Notes: a model not told the origin generated them from the sequence alone. A stretch of DNA of 54,946 nucleotides from an uncultured Bdellovibrionales bacterium (GCA_964609855.1 CAZSTB010000009.1:1-54946); one strand, 5' to 3'; shown: positions 6,176 through 20,889, counted from the stretch's first letter. Numbers and translations are program-made.

Positions 6176-7069
6176 ATGACAATCCAGGAAATTACAAAAA
6201 CTTATAAAAATAGCTTAGACTATTTGGATATAGAAATCTTATTGGCAAACTCTCTTGGTAAAACAAGGGAGTTTGTTCTAATGTATCCAGAAAAAGAACT
6301 GAGCACTTCTCAAATTAAAAATTTCCAATCAAAAGTTCGGCGCCGTATTAAGGGCGAGCCGATTGCATACCTCCTTGGTCACAAGGAGTTTTACGGTTTA
6401 GACTTTATAGCCAATAAACACACACTTGTACCGAGGCCAGAAACTGAACTCATGGTGGAATCAGCAATCAAAGAAATTTCAAATTTCAAATTTCAGAATT
6501 CAAATTCTCTCTCTGTAGTTGATATTGGAACAGGTTCCGGATGCATAATCATATCCGTTGCAAAAGCAATCGAAAATTTCAAATTTCAAATTTCAAATTT
6601 AAAATTTATCGGCACGGACATCAGCAGTGAGGCATTAAAAATTGCCAAGAAAAATGCCGAGATCCACAAATTGAACAAGCAAATAAAATTCATGCAAGGC
6701 GATTTATTATCCCCAATCATTGAAAATTATAAATTGAAAATTGAAAACTCCACAATGATAATTGTGGCTAATCTTCCCTATCTCTCAAAAGAAATTTACA
6801 ACAGCGCACCTATCGATGTGAAAAAGTATGAACCAAAGTCGGCATTATATTCTGCCGAAAATGGCTTAAAACATTATAGACTATTGCTAGAGCAATTAGA
6901 TGAGTTAAACTTCGTCGGTCATCAATCATCGTTCATCGTATTTTTAGAAATTAGTCCTGAGCAAAAAACCGCAATTAAAAAATTAGCGCTTACCATTTTC
7001 CCATCTGCAAAAGTTGACCTCATCAAAGACCTCACTGGCCGATGGCGAATATGCAAAATCAGTATTTAG
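6176..7069 (+). CDS. prmC: Release factor glutamine methyltransferase with in-frame repeat-derived insertions
   Basis: GEPIAYL, LVPRPETE, DIGTGSG, ANLPY, YEPKSAL; follows prfA; start moved to ATG 6176 (MTIQE) from the track's 6008. Confidence 0.93.
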   Translation: MTIQEITKTYKNSLDYLDIEILLANSLGKTREFVLMYPEKELSTSQIKNFQSKVRRRIKGEPIAYLLGHKEFYGLDFIANKHTLVPRPETELMVESAIKEISNFKFQNSNSLSVVDIGTGSGCIIISVAKAIENFKFQISNLKFIGTDISSEALKIAKKNAEIHKLNKQIKFMQGDLLSPIIENYKLKIENSTMIIVANLPYLSKEIYNSAPIDVKKYEPKSALYSAENGLKHYRLLLEQLDELNFVGHQSSFIVFLEISPEQKTAIKKLALTIFPSAKVDLIKDLTGRWRICKISI

Positions 7070-7123
7070 TATTTAGTATTTAGTATTTAGTATTTAGTAT
7101 CTCGTATTTAGTATCTAGTATTT
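7061..7123. repeat. Tandem heptamer (AGTATTT)x9, supplies the prmC stop codon
   Basis: 5 perfect AGTATTT units, then AGTATCT, CGTATTT, AGTATCT, AGTATTT. Confidence 0.92.
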
Positions 7124-7139
7124 GATTCACATTCTTTCC

Positions 7140-7308
7140 CGCACAATCGCGTAGCGCGCCGATACAAATCTGCCGTAAAATGAGCGTTAAAAAATTGTTT
7201 CGCCAGCAGGCGGTTTACAATTTTAGCGAATGAGCGAGCAGTTTGTCGCCGCGCGAGCTTGTGCGAAGCTTTCTTTTGTAACTTTTCTTTCGGGGGAAAG
7301 AAAAGTTA
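7140..7308 (+). repeat. GC-rich ~125-nt nested hairpin followed by a 13-bp AT-rich hairpin (REP/MITE-like)
   Basis: CGCACAA/TTGTGCG, TCGCG/CGCGA, ACAAA-t-CTGC/GCAG-TTTGT, AAAATTGT/ACAATTTT, CGCC/GGCG; then TAACTTTTCTTTC-gggg-GAAAGAAAAGTTA. Confidence 0.75.
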
Positions 7309-7320
7309 GTCATATTTCCC

Positions 7321-7412: not shown

Positions 7413-7592
7413 TTACTTCTTTTTTGAAACTTTTTTAGTTGCTTTTTTAACAACCTTCCTTGGAGCTGCTTTTTTAACTGCTTTTTTTACAGTTTTCACT
7501 GCTTTTTTTACAGTCTTCTTAGCAACCTTCTTTGGAGCTGTTTTTTTAACAACTTTTTTAACTGCTTTTTTTGCTACTTTTTTAACTGCCAT
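7413..7592 (-). CDS. Histone H1-like Lys/Ala/Val-rich DNA-binding protein (59 aa, not in ORF track)
   Basis: MAVKKVAKKAVKKVVKKTAPKKVAKKTVKKAVKTVKKAVKKAAPRKVVKKATKKVSKKK; 27 Lys + 1 Arg, no acidic residue; strong SD AAGGAGGT 8 nt before ATG; own terminator. Confidence 0.85.
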   Translation of the reverse strand: MAVKKVAKKAVKKVVKKTAPKKVAKKTVKKAVKTVKKAVKKAAPRKVVKKATKKVSKKK

Positions 7593-15095: not shown

Positions 15096-17822
15096 ATGTC
15101 CTTAAGAAATTCAGATAAAAACAAAGACGTGCTAAAAGCATTGGAAAATACAATTTCCCCTATTTTGGTTATAAATAACTCCACATTGAAACCGTATGTG
15201 GAACTTTTTAACTATGCGCCGGAAAATATCTATCAACAGCCACTTGGATCTTTGGTTGGTTTTTTTGAAATTAAAGAATATTCTCAAGACTCTGCTTATA
15301 TCGTAAACTTTCTAACGTCCGTTCTGAAGAAAGAATACTACATAAATCCCAAGCGCCCAGTAACTGAAAGTCTCGACAGCGCCTTGCACAAAGTAAATCT
15401 TGCACTTTCAGAGTTAGCTAAGCAAGGAAATGTTGAGTGGTTGGGAAAATTACACGCCTCTATCTGCGTGCTCGAAAAAAATAATGCTCACTTCAGTGTT
15501 GCAGGAAATGCCAAAATATTTCTACATAGAAATCAAACGCTCAGCGAAATCAGTGAAGATTTAGCATCAGATGCAATCGAATTGCATCCGCTCAAAACTT
15601 TTGTGAATGTTTCCAGTGGAAGAATGGAAGCAGGTGACCGTCTCCTAATAACCTCAGATGATATTTTTCACATTCTTTCAATCAACGAACTTAAAAAGAA
15701 TTTGCAACGACTTGAAGGAGAAAAGTTTGTACAATTCTTAAAAACAGCTCTCTCGAATCAACTTGAAATGATAGCATCATTGGTGCTGGAAATGTCGGAA
15801 GCTGAGAAATCAGTACCCACAAAAGCAATAGCGGACAATAAAGCCGCTCCACCAATCAATGTATTCAGTGAAGATGCATTTTCGAATGTGAATTCACAAA
15901 ATACAACTTCGCACGAACAAATTACCGAAAAGGAAAAGGGAGAAGTTGCCTACACTGATGAAAAAACCGGACACATCTACATTCAAGGAGAAGACCTTCC
16001 AATCAGCGAGGTTTCCAAAACCGCCCTGTTTATGGAAGCAGCTAAAGAAAAGGCAGCTGAAGTGTTATATCTAGCGAAAAAAGACCTCCGAAGACGTTTT
16101 ACTTTGTATAAAAAACAACGTGCGAAAGTAGCGGAACTTAGGCGCAGTGAAAAAGAACTTAGAGAAAAATTAGCACTGGAAGAAAAAGAAAAACTTTTAG
16201 CTGAAGCCGAGGCTGAAGAAAAAATAAGAATGGAGCAGCTTGCAATAGAAATGGAAGCGCAACTTGAACTTGAAAAAATTCAGGCTGCAGAGGAAAAAGA
16301 ACGACTACTGATTGAACAGCAGCAATTTGAATTACAGCTTGCTGAAGAAAAAAAGCAAATAGAAACGGCCAAGAAGACTCCGATTGTTGTTGACCTAAAA
16401 AACAACAAGGAAGCAAGCTCTCAGCGACCACTGACATTCAAGGAAAAATTAGCCTTGGCAGTGGTAGAAGACATGCCAACCATAGAAATTGAAGAAGCGG
16501 TAAAAACAAATATTGAAACGTCCAAATCTCCGTTTCAAATGAAGCTACAAAATGCTATTAAAGAACAGCAAAGAAATGCCGTAATAGATTTGCGCACCCC
16601 CAAGCAAGAGGCGGAAGAAGCTTCCATAACCAATGAAGAATATTTCCAACAGCCTGCGGAGTCTGAAGTCTCTGGAAAAGTTTCAGTAACTATCAGCAAC
16701 ACCAAACCACTGTCGCCTGCTGCGCTGAAGCTTGAAGAATTTAAGCTACTGACACAAAGCATAATCAAGCAGACAAATCTGCGTGCTCAAAATTTTGCAA
16801 AGCTGACTCGCAAAACTGCTCAGAAAAAACTCAAGGGGGATGGAGAGAGCGTTGAAAGTAAACATTTCACACCAAGATTCGATAAAATCCGCAGTTCATT
16901 CGCAGCTTTTTCTTCAAAACAAAAGAAATATGCCATTGCCGCGTTTATCATAATTTTTATCGTACCACTTTTCATTGTAAATTTAACTGAAAAACCTAAA
17001 CCGGTAGCTGCTCCAAAAACTGAAATCATTCCCCAGACGCTAGCGGAAAAATTAGCAGGCGAAAAGAACATCAAATTCAATTCAACAAAAAAATTACTCG
17101 TATCAGAATCGATAGTGGCAATTGTCATAGCTAATTCAGATGTTATAGCTATCACTCCCACTGGCACAAAAATTACCAATCGTGATCTTCAAAAAGAATA
17201 TACCCTACCCGAGGGTTCAGGGTCAGCAATTGATGCCACTTTTATGAGCGATCTCTCTTTGGTGCTAATCCTAACTGATAAAAATAAAGTTATTTCATTT
17301 AGTCCAACCTCGCTTAAATTTTCCGAAAATAATATCGTCCTAACCGGAAAACCCTCAGCTACTTTCATGGGAACATATCTTACGTATTTATATGTTTTAG
17401 ATCCTGAAAGTAATCAGATCTATCGCTATCCTCGCGCAGAAGGAGGATTTGGCGAAAAACTAGATTGGTACAAGGACAAAATTTCACTGAGCAAAGTAAC
17501 AGACATGACTATCGATGATAATATTTACTTAGTAGAAAACAATAAAATATTAAAATTCTTCAAGGGAACTTCCGTGCCTTTCACACTAGAAGAATCAAAA
17601 AATCCAGTTCAGCTTAAAAACATCTTCACCACCATGGAATTAACTTCAATATATGCTCTCGATAAAGAAAGTTCGCGAATAATGGAATATAGCAAAGATG
17701 GAAAAATAATCGCACAACATTTCAATGAGGCAGTTGAAAGTGCTGATTCGCTTGCCGTAGATGAAAAAAATCGAACCGCCTACATTATAACTAAAAAAGG
17801 CTTGATCGCGATCTCACTTTAA
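15096..17822 (+). CDS. Large bitopic protein: PP2C-like N-terminal domain, coiled coil, TM, C-terminal beta-propeller-like domain
   Basis: HFSVAGNAKIFLHR...GDRLLITSD (PP2C-like fold); E/K-rich coil; TM YAIAAFIIIFIVPLFIV; repeated LYVLD/IYLVE/IYALD strands. Confidence 0.65.
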   Translation: MSLRNSDKNKDVLKALENTISPILVINNSTLKPYVELFNYAPENIYQQPLGSLVGFFEIKEYSQDSAYIVNFLTSVLKKEYYINPKRPVTESLDSALHKVNLALSELAKQGNVEWLGKLHASICVLEKNNAHFSVAGNAKIFLHRNQTLSEISEDLASDAIELHPLKTFVNVSSGRMEAGDRLLITSDDIFHILSINELKKNLQRLEGEKFVQFLKTALSNQLEMIASLVLEMSEAEKSVPTKAIADNKAAPPINVFSEDAFSNVNSQNTTSHEQITEKEKGEVAYTDEKTGHIYIQGEDLPISEVSKTALFMEAAKEKAAEVLYLAKKDLRRRFTLYKKQRAKVAELRRSEKELREKLALEEKEKLLAEAEAEEKIRMEQLAIEMEAQLELEKIQAAEEKERLLIEQQQFELQLAEEKKQIETAKKTPIVVDLKNNKEASSQRPLTFKEKLALAVVEDMPTIEIEEAVKTNIETSKSPFQMKLQNAIKEQQRNAVIDLRTPKQEAEEASITNEEYFQQPAESEVSGKVSVTISNTKPLSPAALKLEEFKLLTQSIIKQTNLRAQNFAKLTRKTAQKKLKGDGESVESKHFTPRFDKIRSSFAAFSSKQKKYAIAAFIIIFIVPLFIVNLTEKPKPVAAPKTEIIPQTLAEKLAGEKNIKFNSTKKLLVSESIVAIVIANSDVIAITPTGTKITNRDLQKEYTLPEGSGSAIDATFMSDLSLVLILTDKNKVISFSPTSLKFSENNIVLTGKPSATFMGTYLTYLYVLDPESNQIYRYPRAEGGFGEKLDWYKDKISLSKVTDMTIDDNIYLVENNKILKFFKGTSVPFTLEESKNPVQLKNIFTTMELTSIYALDKESSRIMEYSKDGKIIAQHFNEAVESADSLAVDEKNRTAYIITKKGLIAISL

Positions 17823-17842
17823 AATAGCAGCCAAGATATCCG

Positions 17843-17864
17843 CCACACATATTGGTGTGGTTTT
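17843..17864 (+). terminator. Terminator after the 15096 gene
   Basis: GCCACAC-atattg-GTGTGGT followed by TTT. Confidence 0.6.
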
Positions 17865-17872
17865 AAAGCTTA

Positions 17873-17900
17873 TTGACATTCATTTACCTCCTGCTATATT
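17873..17900 (+). promoter_or_regulatory. sigma70 promoter pointing into the non-coding element
   Basis: TTGACA-16nt-TATATT with extended -10 TG; predicted +1 near G17907. Confidence 0.7.
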
Positions 17901-17906
17901 TAACCT

Positions 17907-18264
17907 GCCACAGAGAGGCAGTTTTTAATCACCAGTTCAAGACGGATTGGATACCCGTCGTGTCAAGGAAGAGTCTTAGGGATAGGAGCTTCTCCGTAGA
18001 CACCAAGATTCATGACTGAATTGGCGATTAGCAGGACTTCGGAGCGCAAAGCACACCGATGATCTCACTGGACCAGTCCAGGAGAAAAAGCCTGTACTTT
18101 TTAAGAAATCATGACTATGAACCTTATCAGCCGGAAACGGACTCAAGGAACATGGTGCGCCAACTTTTAAAATTGATGGATGGAAATCCACATGATGGAA
18201 CCAGTTGATATCAATTTTTAGGCTGATTCTTTTTAAGGGCTCCTCTCTGTGGCCCTTTTCTTTC
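17907..18264 (+). ncRNA. Putative ~350-nt structured non-coding RNA of unknown class (alternative: MITE)
   Basis: 12-bp terminal pairing GCCACAGAGAGG/CCTCTCTGTGGC; internal helices 17926-17939/18017-18030, GACGG/CCGTC, GTGTC/GACAC, AGCCT/AGGCT, AAAATTGAT/ATCAATTTT; CCG-GAAA-CGG tetraloop; own promoter and U-tailed hairpin. Confidence 0.6.
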
Positions 18265-18291
18265 AAGATAAGTAATTTTACCCAATCTTAT

Positions 18292-18320
18292 ATTATACAC
18301 CTAAATTGAGTAAAAGTCAA
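18292..18320 (-). promoter_or_regulatory. Near-consensus sigma70 promoter antisense to the non-coding element
   Basis: Minus strand TTGACT-17nt-TATAAT. Confidence 0.65.
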
Positions 18321-18335
18321 CCAAAATTAAGCACA

Positions 18336-18371
18336 CACCTAAAAACAGCTCATCTGAGCTGTTTTTAGGTG
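18336..18371 (-). terminator. Terminator after the ATPase operon
   Basis: CACCTAAAAACAGCTCA-tc-TGAGCTGTTTTTAGGTG. Confidence 0.8.
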
Positions 18372-18399
18372 GACATTTTAGCTAGTATTTCAATGCGGT

Positions 18400-20889
18400 T
18401 TAAAAATCAACTTCTTTAACGGCCTGCTGAGCGAATCTTGCGCGTTCCATAATTTCCCGATTAACAATATGCGCATCTCTGCCGTACTTGAGACGCGAAA
18501 GCTCCTTGAGATAATTTGCAGCTTCCTGATTGCCTTTAGTTGGAGGATAAAATTTAATATTGAATGGCTTGGAAAGTTCCCCATTAACTAACATGCGAGT
18601 AAAACCGCTGTAGTTATCCACATTAACGAGATCATTAACCGTGAAAATCGGTAGGAATTGTTTTTCTAAAAATTCCGCATCTTCAGGCCCTACTCGCAGC
18701 GTCACCATTGAACCGACATTACCGAAAACCGCCTTTGAGATTTCATCTTTAAGTTGCCCAATAAACTGATGGGCGATAATCAAGCAGAGACGATACTTTC
18801 TTGCCTCAGATAGAATCTGAGAAATTGAATCGGTCGTGACATTTTGGAATTCATCAAGGTATAAATAAAAATCGCGTCTCTCATTTTCAGGCATGTCTCC
18901 ACGTGCCAAAGCATTCATCAAAATCTTACCCACAATCACCATTCCCAGCAGATGTGCATTAATTTCTCCAATTTTTCCTTTTGACAATTTGACTAACAAA
19001 ATTTTTCCGCCATCCATTATTTCTCTGAAATTTAACGTGCTCTTTTGCTGCGCAATAATCGGGCGCATCATATCATTGGAAATGAAAGTTGTAAGTTTTG
19101 AAGTGATATAAGGAACCATATTGGCAAGTGCCGCCTCCCCACCAGCTTTCTCTGCTTCTTTGATCCAAAAATCTGAAACAACTGGATTCTTGCACTTAGT
19201 AAGCTTCATTTTACGGAAACCGTCGTCGGCCAACACCTTAGAAATCTCCATCAAAGTCGAGCCGGATTCCGGATCTTCCATAATCAGGAGCATGGCATTT
19301 CTCACATACTGTTCAAACATTGGGCCACCGGTTGCCTTAAGGTCATATAATTGATCAAAAATTCCAATCATCTCATTAATAACAAAAGTTTTCTGTTCCG
19401 GATGAGCGGGATCAAACTCTAACATATTCAAACCAAAAGGTCTTTCCATATCAGACGGATCAAAAACAATCACGTCCTCGGCTCGTTCTTTCGGAATTGC
19501 AGTTAGGATGTCTTCAATTGCATCTCCATGTGGGTCAATGAAACAGAAACCTTTTCCACTTCGTGCGTCCTGTTTGGCCATTTCCTGTAAGAAATTTGAT
19601 TTACCAACACCAGTCTGCCCGATTGTGTACAGGTGACGTCTTCTATCACCATCACTGAGTCTAATATCAGTTTTAACCCCGCGATAATCATTGTAACCCA
19701 AAACCATGCCCTCTTTGGGAATGTTTAGTGGAGGCGGAGCAGCACCAGCCTTGAGCCATTTTATCTTAGGCGTTTCCGTAGTGGAAATTGGAAAATGGAA
19801 AATACTGGAAATCTCCTCAGTCGAAAGAATTGCCGCAGTTTCTTCATCAAAATTGCGAAAAATATAATCATAGGATATTACTTTTTCCTTCAAGCGTTTT
19901 TGTACGATAAAATGGTTGACCTCGTGACTTTCAAACTGAGCGAAAGCGTTTTCCATATGACTCAAAATTTCATCTGCACGCTGCTGACTCATGGCGGAAG
20001 CTACCAAACGAATATTCACCTTAAAACCTGCTTTGCCTGATTTAGCTTCGATCTTTTTAATTAACTCCTGCTCTTCGGGGGTGAGCTGGATAGACTCTTT
20101 CTTTCCATACTGATTTTGTGGATCATTCTTCATTGTCTGCACGACTCCCTTACTTAATTCCAACGCCAATGAGGGATTGTGCGCATCTTTCAATTGCTTC
20201 CCTTGCTGCATCTTATGTGCGATTCCTCTGCCAAGCTTGCGCCAACTTTGTCCGGCTGGACGCAAAATCAGCTGAATAGCTGCGCCTTCGCCGTCATCTC
20301 TTAGCTTACTCAACGCATTGGATATTTCACCCAATGGATCAACCTCCATGCCTTCATAAGTAGCTATCGGGAGAGCGTAAGAACGTTTCAAACCCAAAGA
20401 AGCAGCCGAAGTGAAACTGCCTGGGGAAAAAATCGTATAGTCGGGAATTTTTTCAATCGAGGCATGCGGAAAATAACTATGCACCTGCTTTTCAATACTG
20501 TCGCGAAATTTCTTAGGAACTGCTAAATAAAAATGAATCTCTTCGTTTCCTGCTGGGTTAGCTATCTCCAGGGCGATATAAGGTTCGTTATATAAAAAGT
20601 GAGCCAGCAAAGATTTTTTTTCTTTCAAGTTAGCCAGCGTAGTTAATAATTGCTCCATGGCGCCAATTTCTTCTTTCCAAATTTCGCTACCACCAGTCTT
20701 CTGTTCATTTTTATCCTTGAAAATCTTAGTCACTCTAACAATTTCCAAGTCCATATTCATGCTGCGGTTGATTTGTGCGCGATAATTCAAAAAACTTCGC
20801 AGTACCCAAAAAATTCCACTTAAAAACGTGGTTACCGAAAATGTCCATGCAAGAGGAATTAAAAATGCATTCGGATCTATAGTTTCCAT
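18400..20889 (-). CDS. VirB4/VirD4(TraG)-like HerA/FtsK-superfamily ATPase with N-terminal TM
   Basis: RRRHLYTIGQTGVGKS (Walker A), FIDPHGD, LYLDEFQN (Walker B), EARKYRL..AHQ. Confidence 0.88.
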   Translation of the reverse strand: METIDPNAFLIPLAWTFSVTTFLSGIFWVLRSFLNYRAQINRSMNMDLEIVRVTKIFKDKNEQKTGGSEIWKEEIGAMEQLLTTLANLKEKKSLLAHFLYNEPYIALEIANPAGNEEIHFYLAVPKKFRDSIEKQVHSYFPHASIEKIPDYTIFSPGSFTSAASLGLKRSYALPIATYEGMEVDPLGEISNALSKLRDDGEGAAIQLILRPAGQSWRKLGRGIAHKMQQGKQLKDAHNPSLALELSKGVVQTMKNDPQNQYGKKESIQLTPEEQELIKKIEAKSGKAGFKVNIRLVASAMSQQRADEILSHMENAFAQFESHEVNHFIVQKRLKEKVISYDYIFRNFDEETAAILSTEEISSIFHFPISTTETPKIKWLKAGAAPPPLNIPKEGMVLGYNDYRGVKTDIRLSDGDRRRHLYTIGQTGVGKSNFLQEMAKQDARSGKGFCFIDPHGDAIEDILTAIPKERAEDVIVFDPSDMERPFGLNMLEFDPAHPEQKTFVINEMIGIFDQLYDLKATGGPMFEQYVRNAMLLIMEDPESGSTLMEISKVLADDGFRKMKLTKCKNPVVSDFWIKEAEKAGGEAALANMVPYITSKLTTFISNDMMRPIIAQQKSTLNFREIMDGGKILLVKLSKGKIGEINAHLLGMVIVGKILMNALARGDMPENERRDFYLYLDEFQNVTTDSISQILSEARKYRLCLIIAHQFIGQLKDEISKAVFGNVGSMVTLRVGPEDAEFLEKQFLPIFTVNDLVNVDNYSGFTRMLVNGELSKPFNIKFYPPTKGNQEAANYLKELSRLKYGRDAHIVNREIMERARFAQQAVKEVDF

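What the first reader, a model, noticed from the sequence alone, without database searches (positions are those of the whole stretch)
17873..18264. Orphan ~350-nt highly structured non-coding element with its own promoter and terminator
Seen: the predicted +1 (G17907) coincides with the start of a perfect 12-bp helix that pairs with 18242-18253. Inside are a 14-bp helix (12 Watson-Crick pairs) closing a multibranch domain (GACGG/CCGTC, GTGTC/GACAC), CTGGAC/GTCCAG, a CCG-GAAA-CGG tetraloop, a CTTCGG and a 9-bp AAAATTGAT/ATCAATTTT helix. GC content is visibly above the flanks and no credible protein is encoded. I do not see the signatures of RNase P (GAGGAAAGUCC), tmRNA (tRNA-like ends), SRP or group II intron D5. 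Inference: best candidate in the window for an undescribed large ncRNA, lying convergent to the VirB4/VirD4-like operon.
Basis: partly seen in the sequence, partly recalled or inferred. Interest (0 to 1): 0.78.

Follow-up and report, generated by a model that had tools for sequence, protein, structure and literature searches.

The report
New structured RNA gene in Moranbacteria
This is a real, roughly 355-base folded RNA gene with its own start and stop signals, found in only four related groundwater bacteria, matching no known RNA family, and carrying a hairpin that copies a universally conserved loop of ribosomal RNA.

Summary
Window 17907-18260 (+) is a stand-alone, non-coding, highly structured RNA gene. 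It has a near-consensus promoter (TTGACA-16-TGnTATATT), a perfect 12-bp closing helix that starts at the predicted +1, and an intrinsic terminator.

It matches none of 4227 Rfam families. RNase P RNA and tmRNA lie elsewhere in the genome.

Homologues exist in 4 of 33 genomes of the same family (Moranbacteria-like Patescibacteria). They always sit in the same variable gap, between a conserved 908-aa gene and a conserved VirD4-like gene. Each has the same promoter and terminator.

All four fold far better than shuffles (z -3.9 to -5.3). They share no reading frame and show compensatory changes in five helices.

Nothing similar turned up in 150 other genomes of the order, 150 of the class, or in three collection scans. 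In a quick VirD4 tree, each carrier's nearest relatives lack the gene, so it is an accessory gene.

The best-conserved piece is a hairpin whose 9-nt loop plus G-C closing pairs copies the 16S rRNA "790 loop" (13/13 in one homologue).

Function is not shown. My best guess (about 0.3) is a stable trans-acting decoy or scaffold that binds a partner of the 30S platform. No expression data exist.

The parts
17873..17900 (+). Promoter: -35 TTGACA (17873-17878), 16-nt spacer, extended -10 TGcTATATT (17892-17900). Predicted +1 is about G17907.
   Evidence: scores it 11 of 12 with TG. The same promoter sits at the same distance in G001, G021 and G032 (10-11 of 12). The +1 is inferred from spacing, not measured.
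17907..17918 (+). P1 5' strand, GCCACAGAGAGG. It can also form a weak local hairpin (17905-17921).
   Evidence: The A/G at the fifth base covaries with the 3' strand.
17926..18030 (+). 5' domain. Helix P2 (17926-17939 with 18017-18030) encloses hairpins H1 and H2.
   Evidence: MFE folds. P2 is formed by different segments in G021 and G032, so this domain is only partly conserved.
17941..17959 (+). H1: GACGG-AUUGGAUAC-CCGUC, a hairpin that copies the 16S rRNA helix-24 '790 loop'.
   Evidence: Matches to GGATTAGATACCC of a family member's 16S are 12/13 in G000 and G021, 13/13 in G001 and 12/12 in G032. One stem pair changes A-U to G-C.
17960..18003 (+). H2: GUGUC/GACAC stem with a GGAG-CUU-CUCC tip, followed by the conserved CCAAGAUU block.
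   Evidence: The tip keeps pairing in G001 and G021 with different letters (read).
18031..18100 (+). Variable middle domain. It is shorter in G021 and replaced in G032.
   Evidence: Alignment A4; folds.
18103..18232 (+). Conserved 3' domain. P3 (18103-18111 with 18224-18232) encloses the AUCAUGAC block, hairpin HA (18114-18156, GAAA tip 18134-18137), the GGUGCGCCAAC block (18154-18164), P4 (18159-18161 with 18221-18223) and hairpin HB (18169-18218).
   Evidence: The domain folded alone gives the same layout in G000, G001 and G021. G032 reaches it within 4 kcal/mol of its MFE. Compensatory changes are seen in HA, P4 and HB. CM R2 scores 122-136 bits in the four genomes.
18237..18263 (+). Intrinsic terminator: stem GGGCU/GGCCC, loop CCUCUCUGU, then a U-run. 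The P1 3' strand CCUCUCUGUGGC (18242-18253) lies inside it.
   Evidence: Canonical terminators sit at the same place in the three homologues.
18292..18320 (-). Neighbour, not part of the RNA: a conserved minus-strand promoter, TTGACT-17-TATAAT, pointing towards the RNA gene.
   Evidence: 11 of 12. The same promoter is found in G001 and G032 and can be read in the other loci printed.
18340..18372 (.). Neighbour: a two-way terminator hairpin that ends the VirD4-like gene (18400-20889, minus strand).
   Evidence: hairpin picked up as spurious miRNA-like matches. The same hairpin is listed in G001.

Best explanation
Window 17907 to about 18260 (+) is an independently transcribed, non-coding, stably folded RNA of about 355 nt. 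It founds a new, very narrow RNA family in Moranbacteria-like Patescibacteria.

Shown from sequence and comparison:
- a strong sigma-70-type promoter fires at the first base of a 12-14 bp closing helix (P1);
- the transcript ends at an intrinsic terminator whose left arm and loop are the other strand of P1;
- between them lie a 5' domain with the conserved hairpin H1, a variable middle, and a conserved 3' domain (P3 enclosing HA, P4 and HB).

Inferred:
- the terminator hairpin forms first and releases the RNA;
- the released RNA then refolds into the much more stable P1 (-26 to -32 kcal/mol, against -14 to -16 for the two local hairpins), which seals both ends and makes the RNA long-lived.

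Most likely mechanism (inference, about 0.3): the RNA acts in trans as a decoy or scaffold. Its H1 hairpin presents a copy of the 16S rRNA 790 loop, including the base equivalent to G791. It would bind something that normally recognises the 30S platform. Candidates are IF3's C-terminal domain, a platform ribosomal protein or assembly factor, or the 50S side of bridge B2b. The conserved 3' domain would supply the fold or a second binding surface.

The gene is accessory: it sits in a hypervariable gap and has been gained or lost repeatedly among close relatives.

I put 'real structured ncRNA gene of a new family' at about 0.85. The confidence field below refers to the mechanism.
For: Promoter, +1 and P1 coincide in the window. 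The same holds in all three homologues, each with a canonical terminator.

Fold z-scores are -5.33, -4.09, -4.52 and -3.88. The plus strand folds better than the minus strand.

On the 26 pairs that MAFFT aligns (P1, H1, the HA base, P4):
- 93.3% of 104 cells pair, against 38-50% when the partner is slid by 1-3 columns;
- 5 pairs (7 cells) change on both sides, against 0-2 in the slid controls;
- 0 of 500 shuffles reach the observed percentage paired or covariation score.

HB starts 4-5 nt after the conserved GGYGCGYCAAC block in all four RNAs. Its letters are unrelated between the two genera, and it has two swaps between G000 and G001.

No reading frame is shared on either strand. No Rfam match exists for any of the four.

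H1 is the best-kept stretch, 12 of 13 positions, in an RNA whose mean column identity is 61%. It equals the 16S 790-loop hairpin of a family member.

From passages read in papers:
- IF3C binds the 790 loop, a change at 791 lowers IF3 affinity tenfold, and the loop forms bridge B2b (PMC3130014);
- the E. coli loop sequence, as given by that paper's RNase T1 fragments, is CAGGAUUAGAUACCCUG (PMC4613259).

P1 is far more stable than the two local hairpins.
Against: - No transcript has been seen.
- Only four distinct sequences exist, so covariation statistics are thin and R-scape-type tests are impossible.
- I noticed the 790-loop likeness after the fact. Against a single 4.5-kb rRNA locus its BLAST E-values are only 0.019 (G001) to 4.8 (G000).
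- The likeness covers only the loop and two to three closing pairs, not the rest of helix 24.
- Two of the four RNAs carry G at the position equivalent to A790.
- No partner protein was identified, and no gene co-occurs visibly with the RNA at the locus.
- A decoy for a core translation factor would be expected to be widespread. This one is in 4 of 33 family genomes and is missing from each carrier's nearest relatives.
- The 5' and middle domains are poorly conserved.
Confidence: 0.3

Rival explanations
1. A base-pairing riboregulator. The RNA acts through exposed conserved stretches: GGUGCGCCAAC, CCAAGAUU, the U-rich linker, or the purine-rich SD-like 5' strand GAGAGG. These would pair with mRNAs or with the 16S 3' end. 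In the two g11 RNAs the 5' end reads GGAGAGGUGAU, close to a perfect Shine-Dalgarno sequence, and the 3' strand reads UCACCUCUCC, like the 16S tail GGAUCACCUCCUUUCU.
For: Conserved unpaired blocks are seen in alignments A4 and A5. The 16S tail of a family member was read. SD-like and anti-SD-like strands are present in G021 and G032.
Against: - 355 nt with five or more conserved helices is far more structure than a seed-pairing sRNA needs.
- The strong SD-like extension is absent from G000 and G001.
- The GGUGCGCCAAC block is partly paired (P4) in the consensus fold.
- Its perfect complement occurs once elsewhere in the 1.23-Mb genome, about what chance gives.
- The short ORFs behind the SD-like 5' end are not conserved.
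Confidence: 0.15
2. A large self-organising or catalytic RNA, such as a ribozyme, a ligand-binding RNA or a multimer-forming RNA in the manner of other large orphan bacterial RNAs. Its conserved junctions would form an active site or an assembly interface.
For: Size, a multi-helix junction with conserved joining strands, GNRA-type tips on HA in two of the four RNAs, and a closing helix.
Against: No match to any ribozyme or large-RNA family in Rfam at E up to 10. The middle third is freely replaceable. No cleavage-site signature was seen. Only four sequences exist.
Confidence: 0.1
3. A DNA-level or selfish element rather than a functional RNA. One form is a MITE-like cassette with 12-14 bp terminal inverted repeats (GCCACAGAGAGG ... 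CCTCTCTGTGGC). Another is a transfer-origin-like set of inverted repeats beside the coupling-protein gene. Its hairpins would matter as DNA.
For: - The ends are perfect inverted repeats that change together.
- The cassette is present or absent among close relatives.
- The gap is a hot spot that also holds a multicopy MITE-like repeat.
- G024 keeps only the right-end sequence, as a terminator.
- The gene lies next to a VirD4-like gene.
Against: - There is one copy in the genome.
- No target-site duplication flanks the repeats in any of the four (read).
- The conserved promoter lies outside the repeats and places +1 on the first repeat base, and a U-run follows the last.
- Several conserved pairs are G-U on the plus strand, which would be A-C mismatches on the other strand and weak in DNA.
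- The plus strand folds better than the minus strand.
- The VirD4-like gene is core (33 of 33 genomes) while the element is in 4.
Confidence: 0.1
4. A cis-acting transcription device. Competition between P1 and the terminator decides whether transcription stops at about 18260. If it does not stop, it reads on across the conserved minus-strand promoter (18320-18292) towards the end of the VirD4-like gene. The long RNA would then work like a riboswitch-type sensor controlling interference with the neighbouring promoter.
For: The P1 3' strand is embedded in the terminator, so the two exclude each other. A conserved minus-strand promoter faces the RNA gene 30-60 nt downstream.
Against: - A two-way terminator at 18340-18372 would stop read-through after about 100 nt.
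- In G021 a 97-aa gene and another terminator separate the RNA from that promoter.
- The minus-strand promoter and its cargo exist in the many genomes that lack the RNA.
- No ligand-type conserved pocket was identified.
Confidence: 0.05
5. A small-protein gene: the 96-codon minus-strand frame 17976-18266, or a plus-strand frame.
For: An open frame of 95-96 codons exists on the minus strand in G000.
Against: - The frame starts with TTG and has no ribosome-binding site (read).
- It is broken into different frames in G001.
- The longest frames of G021 and G032 lie on the other strand and share no similarity with each other.
- It has no Pfam match.
- The substitution pattern is of the base-pair type.
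Confidence: 0.02

Closest known systems
6S RNA (RF00013), the classic bacterial decoy RNA
   Same: A stand-alone gene with its own promoter and terminator and with paired ends. It works, as I propose here, by imitating a nucleic-acid structure that a core machine recognises. No 6S was detected in this genome.
   Different: 6S is about 180 nt and is one long irregular hairpin with a central bubble, found in most bacteria. This RNA is about 355 nt and multi-branched, gives no 6S match even at E up to 10, and is present in only 4 of 33 family genomes.
rRNA-mimicking leaders of ribosomal-protein operons (S15, S8, L1, S6:S18 and similar; recalled)
   Same: A short RNA hairpin copies a protein-binding site of rRNA.
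   Different: Those are cis-acting parts of the mRNA they regulate. This RNA has no downstream gene, because the next gene is convergent. I recall no known mimic of helix 24 / the 790 loop, and my searches for '790 loop' with 'mimic' or 'IF3' listed none.
Large orphan structured bacterial RNAs (OLE, GOLLD, ROOL, raiA, HEARO; names recalled, families held in Rfam)
   Same: Several hundred nucleotides, many conserved helices, patchy distribution, and function not obvious from context.
   Different: No sequence or structure match to any of them. This family is much rarer (four species, one bacterial family), and a third of the molecule is not conserved.
Riboswitch expression platforms
   Same: One strand of the closing helix P1 is shared with an intrinsic terminator, so two folds compete.
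   Different: No downstream gene is controlled. Here the competitor of the terminator is the closing helix of the whole RNA, and the P1 fold is the thermodynamic end state.
MITEs / small non-autonomous transposons
   Same: Perfect 12-14 bp inverted repeats at the ends, about 350 bp, and present or absent among relatives.
   Different: Single copy, no target duplication, the promoter lies outside the repeats, and internal helices show RNA-type (G-U) pairing.

Membership tests
Bacterial RNase P RNA (RF00010/RF00011) | Match to the covariance model, with the conserved P4 core (GAGGAAAGUCC ... ACAGAA); one essential copy per genome | tested here: not met
   No match on the element even at E up to 10. 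The genome's RNase P RNA is at G000:C19:16011-16393, 147 bits.
tmRNA (RF00023) | tRNA-like paired ends with a T-arm, a tag reading frame, and a model match | tested here: not met
   ARAGORN finds no tmRNA in the window. The genome's tmRNA is at C13:2181-2592, 127.5 bits. No match on the element.
6S RNA (RF00013) | About 180-nt single rod with a central bubble; model match | tested here: not met
   No match in the genome or on the element. The predicted fold is multi-branched.
SRP RNA (RF00169, RF01854) | Helix 8 with the conserved GNAR tetraloop and symmetric/asymmetric loops; model match; universal together with Ffh | tested here: not met
   No match on the element or in the genome. RF00169 matched 0 of 33 family genomes. 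A paper reports that Parcubacteria lack both ffh and ffs (PMC4508563, abstract and passages). The HA tip is GAAA in two RNAs but CAG and UAAAA in the other two.
Group I / group II introns, known ribozymes, other Rfam large RNAs | Match to the family covariance model | tested here: not met
   cmscan of 4227 families gives nothing at gathering score and nothing relevant at E up to 10 on the element. Nothing at E up to 0.5 on the three homologous loci.
MITE | Terminal inverted repeats | tested here: met
   12-14 bp perfect inverted repeats.
MITE | Target-site duplication and multiple copies per genome | tested here: not met
   One copy in G000. The flanks of the four copies share no direct repeat.
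Stand-alone bacterial ncRNA gene (generic) | Own promoter and intrinsic terminator, conserved with the RNA; no conserved ORF; conserved base-paired structure | tested here: met
   signals; no ORF; structure.
Stand-alone bacterial ncRNA gene (generic) | A transcript with defined ends is actually made | not testable with these tools
   There is no direct evidence of a transcript, so its ends could not be mapped.
rRNA-site mimic (decoy) | Copies the sequence and hairpin context of an rRNA site | tested here: met
   GG-AUU(A/G)GAUAC-CC in a hairpin loop in all four RNAs. It matches 13/13, 12/12, 12/13 and 12/13 to the 16S of family member G004.
rRNA-site mimic (decoy) | Binds the factor that binds the rRNA site | not testable with these tools
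   No RNA-protein prediction tool was available. This needs a binding assay.

The most novel reading that the evidence does not exclude
An accessory 'platform-mimic' RNA. This would be a stable 355-nt RNA that displays a copy of the 16S 790 loop and, in its terminator loop, an anti-Shine-Dalgarno-like CCUCUC strand. It would titrate a factor that docks on the 30S platform. That factor could be the cell's own IF3, or a foreign platform protein such as the S21 copies that phages of these bacteria are reported to carry (recalled, not checked here). If so, it would be the first trans-acting rRNA decoy, used as a movable defence or translation-tuning cassette in ultra-small bacteria.
Probability: 0.12. 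Interest if true: 0.9.

Novelty: new variant of a known kind. Interest (0 to 1): 0.62.

Why it matters
Large, intricately folded bacterial RNAs outside the known families are rare. Each one so far has pointed to unexpected biology.

This one comes from Patescibacteria, where almost nothing is known about non-coding RNA, and it is clean enough to test directly. It has defined ends, a defined core, four natural variants, and one sharply conserved hairpin that equals a universally conserved ribosomal loop bound by IF3 and by the large subunit.

If that hairpin is a decoy, it would show that bacteria use free-standing rRNA mimics to act on the translation machinery. Its presence or absence among close relatives would suggest a role in conflict or adaptation rather than housekeeping.

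If it is not a decoy, the family is still a new structured RNA for Rfam and a marker of a hypervariable slot beside the conserved type IV secretion-like genes of these organisms.

Tried and rejected
**Known RNAs.** RNase P, tmRNA, 6S, SRP, introns and ribozymes are all excluded.

**Coding.** Rejected.

**Expression.** The look-up of sequencing runs listed no RNA holder. It listed only three groundwater DNA runs from one study, which may be the source of the assembly.

**Wider homologues.**
- BLAST over 61 relatives found 3 genomes, G000 included.
- CM R1 (5' 108 nt) found 3 of 33 and missed the divergent G032 copy.
- nhmmer on the syntenic gaps added G032 and a terminator-only remnant in G024.
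- CM R2 (3' domain) separated 4 genomes (122-136 bits) from noise (25.6 bits or less) among the 33 family genomes.
- In 151 genomes of the order, R2 found only G000 and G021 above noise. The best other match, 29.9 bits, lies in a stretch that reads as coding, and no R1 match lies near any weak R2 match.
- In 151 genomes of the class, R2 found G000 plus one 25-bit match.

**Collection scans** with a P1-plus-H1 pattern:
- Genome contigs returned 2 stretches, the G001 and G032 records;
- Metagenome contigs returned 26 stretches, of which 3 are homologues (copies of G032, a G021-like and a G001-like sequence) and 23 are chance matches lacking the 3' strand;
- Viral contigs returned 0.

These patterns demand exact conserved motifs, so divergent relatives would be missed.

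**Other leads that went nowhere.**
- Extra rRNA likeness: an 8-mer match of G001 to the 690 loop and a 15/16 match of G032 to a site downstream of the 16S are not shared by the other RNAs.
- Target search for complements of the conserved blocks in the genome gave chance-level counts.
- A pseudoknot partner for the H1 loop that covaries with the A/G loop position: none found at a conserved place (by eye).
- The genome search does not take DNA alignments.

**Prior description.** Searches found no paper on this RNA. Two 2026 preprints that map intergenic sequence families (10.64898/2026.09.15.751765 and 10.64898/2026.10.21.760802) were seen only in a search listing. Their data tables and all supplements were not seen and could list this family.

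Full report
**What is there**

- A near-consensus promoter on the plus strand: TTGACA 17873-17878, a 16-nt spacer, TATATT 17895-17900 preceded by TG. It scores 11 of 12. This puts the likely start at about G17907.
- From that base, GCCACAGAGAGG (17907-17918) pairs perfectly with CCTCTCTGTGGC (18242-18253).
That fold is -119.7 kcal/mol against -94.0 +/- 4.8 for 100 dinucleotide shuffles (z -5.33, none as good).
- The opposite strand folds less well (z -3.80).
- G+C rises to 0.44-0.49 inside the element, against 0.32-0.38 around it.

**What it is not**

- cmscan of the whole window against 4227 Rfam families finds only four tRNAs.
- A permissive scan of 17700-18450 lists 19 matches up to E = 10. 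None comes near its family threshold and none belongs to a large structured RNA family.
- The genome's RNase P RNA (147 bits) and tmRNA (127.5 bits) are on other contigs.
- No 6S RNA was detected in the genome.
- No SRP RNA was detected in the genome or in any of the 33 genomes of the family. This agrees with a paper reporting that Parcubacteria lack both ffh and ffs (PMC4508563, abstract and passages).
- The three homologous loci also give no Rfam match.
- There is one copy in the 1.23-Mb, 98.5%-complete genome.

**Setting**

The window is ordinary chromosome, with genes such as rpsB, tsf, prfA, mreB, murA, rnc, nusB, dnaE and thrS.

- Upstream on the plus strand is a 908-aa gene with no family match.
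- Downstream and convergent is an 829-aa TrwB/VirD4-like coupling protein.
- The VirD4-like gene is core: 33 of 33 family genomes carry it at 71-87% identity.
- The convergent pair is conserved, but the gap between the two genes ranges from 77 to 1236 nt in the 26 loci where both ends could be placed.

Public records name two of the relatives as Candidatus Moranbacteria and Parcubacteria genomes from groundwater.

**Homologues**

- BLAST over 61 relatives found the element in G001 (same genus) and part of it in G021.
- nhmmer on the syntenic gaps added a divergent copy in G032. In G024 it found a remnant that keeps only ACCACCTCTCCGTGG plus a T-run, serving as terminator of the 908-like gene.
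- A covariance model of the 3' domain separates four genomes (122-136 bits) from everything else (25.6 bits or less) among the 33 family genomes.
- The same model finds no further member in 150 other genomes of the order or 150 of the class.
- Exact-pattern scans of genome, metagenome and viral collections return only copies of the same species.

So there are four distinct sequences, in two genera: 2 of 3 genomes in one genus and 2 of 9 in the other.

**Conserved anatomy**

All four RNAs have the promoter at the same distance (10-11 of 12). All four have a terminator at the 3' end, canonical in the three homologues. All four fold well: z -5.33, -4.09, -4.52 and -3.88.

Shared parts, in order:
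- P1, 12-14 bp.
- Hairpin H1.
- A CCAAGAUU-type block.
- A variable middle, shortened in G021 and replaced in G032.
- A 3' domain. Here a purine-rich strand just before the AUCUUGAC block pairs with the U-rich linker (P3). P3 encloses hairpin HA, the GGYGCGYCAAC block (whose GCGYC pairs with GRC-UGC of the linker, forming P4), and hairpin HB.

Folded alone, this 3' domain gives the same layout in three of the four RNAs. G032 reaches it 4 kcal/mol above its own optimum.

**Covariation**

On the 26 pairs that MAFFT aligns reliably:
- 93.3% of 104 cells pair, against 38-50% when the 3' partner is slid by 1 to 3 columns.
- Five pairs (seven cells) change on both sides, against 0-2 in the slid versions. 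They are A-U to G-C in P1, A-U to G-C in H1, A-U to G-C and U-A to A-U in HA, and C-G to U-A in P4.
- No shuffle of 500 reaches the observed pairing or covariation score. With four related sequences this is weak as statistics.

HB could not be aligned by column. In all four RNAs it starts 4-5 nt after the conserved block and ends 22-24 nt before P1. It has two swaps between G000 and G001 and unrelated letters in the other genus.

Several conserved pairs are G-U on the plus strand. No reading frame is shared: the 95-codon minus-strand frame of G000 is split in G001, and the longest frames of G021 and G032 lie on the other strand and are unrelated.

**Ends**

The 3' strand of P1 is also the left arm and loop of the terminator hairpin. 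The 5' strand can form a small hairpin of its own.

The two local hairpins sum to -13.6 to -16.2 kcal/mol. The P1 duplex is -25.6 to -31.6 kcal/mol.

The simplest reading, which is inference: the terminator forms during transcription and releases the RNA. The RNA then settles into P1 with both ends sealed, as in other stable RNAs.

**The ribosomal loop**

H1 (17941-17959) is GACGG-AUUGGAUAC-CCGUC. The 16S gene is missing from the assemblies of G000, G001, G021, G032 and G018. Family member G004 has it, and its helix 24 reads GGGAUUAGAUACCCC.

Matches of the RNA hairpin to GGAUUAGAUACCC:

| RNA | Match |
|---|---|
| G001 | 13 of 13 |
| G032 | 12 of 12 |
| G000 | 12 of 13 |
| G021 | 12 of 13 |

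In each case the match is a 9-nt hairpin loop closed by G-C pairs, as in the ribosome. It is the best-kept stretch of an RNA whose mean column identity is 61%. The one variable loop base corresponds to A790; the G791 equivalent is invariant.

From passages read in papers:
- The C-terminal domain of IF3 binds this loop, a change at 791 lowers IF3 affinity tenfold, and the loop forms bridge B2b to the large subunit (PMC3130014).
- The E. coli loop sequence and its role at the subunit interface are given in PMC4613259.

I noticed the likeness after the fact, and it does not extend beyond the tip of helix 24. It is a lead, not a proof.

**Accessory nature**

A quick maximum-likelihood tree of the VirD4-like protein (30 rows; the careful search did not finish) gives the following:
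- All four carriers fall inside one clade of 12 genomes, with SH-aLRT support of 80.
- Each carrier sits next to non-carriers, so four changes of state are needed.

G032 differs from its near neighbours G018 and G026 by a 438-bp block that holds the promoter, the RNA and a short terminator. In G018 that block is replaced by 139 bp, and in G026 almost nothing lies there.

The gap also holds a multicopy MITE-like repeat and, on the other strand, a conserved promoter with variable small cargo. The RNA gene is therefore one of several interchangeable inserts in a hypervariable slot. That fits adaptation or conflict better than housekeeping.

**Verdict**

- A real, new, narrowly distributed structured RNA gene: about 0.85.
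- Mechanism unknown. My best guess is a sealed, long-lived trans-acting RNA that uses the 790-loop copy to bind a partner of the 30S platform (about 0.3).
- Rivals: base-pairing regulator (0.15), self-organising or catalytic RNA (0.1), DNA-level or selfish element (0.1), cis transcription device (0.05), small-protein gene (0.02).
- No expression data could be found (see Tried and rejected).

Noticed in passing
window 18292-18320 (minus strand) and the same place in L003, L046 and the loci: A near-consensus promoter (TTGACT-17-TATAAT) directly after the terminator of the VirD4-like gene is conserved across the family. In different genomes it drives different small, mostly hydrophobic ORFs (for example G002, G021, G024, G030, G031). 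In others it drives only a 45-60 nt transcript ending in its own terminator (G001, G018, G026, G032). In G000 it points straight into the RNA gene's terminator.
   Followed up: partly
window 7125-7320; also upstream of the RNA gene in L046 (about 6900-7100), L004 (about 1200-1420) and other loci: A roughly 190-nt long-hairpin repeat with CTTTTCTTT/AAAGAAAAG ends, MITE-like. It gave 11 BLAST matches in G000 on 10 contigs, the query itself included, several of them partial, and it recurs in the variable gap of several relatives. No Rfam match above threshold.
   Followed up: partly
gap between the 908-aa-like and VirD4-like genes in 26 family loci: The gap is a hypervariable slot, 77 to 1236 nt long, with unrelated contents even between close relatives.
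   Followed up: partly
L027 (G024), directly after the 908-like gene: Only the right end of the RNA gene (ACCACCTCTCCGTGG plus a T-run) is present, acting as a terminator. Either it is a remnant of a lost RNA gene, or it is the ancestral terminator from which P1 was built.
   Followed up: no
whole genome G000 and 32 relatives: No SRP RNA match in 0 of 33 family genomes, and no 6S RNA match in G000. The SRP result fits the published absence of SRP in Parcubacteria (PMC4508563).
   Followed up: partly
L004 about 1469-1500 and L046 about 7152-7200: In the two RNAs of the second genus the 5' end reads GGAGAGGUGAU, a near-perfect Shine-Dalgarno sequence, followed by a start codon and a 4- or 9-codon frame. 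The frames are not conserved and are absent from G000 and G001.
   Followed up: partly
window 7063-7125 and 7413-7592 (minus strand): A tandem GTATTTA repeat, and beside it a 59-aa Lys/Ala-rich, very basic ORF (histone-H1-like composition) in an AT-rich 1.4-kb stretch without other genes.
   Followed up: no
H1 and P1 across the four RNAs: P1 letters follow the genus (G000 = G001; G021 = G032). The H1 loop base and its covarying stem pair group G000 with G021 and G001 with G032. This hints at recombination or parallel change.
   Followed up: no
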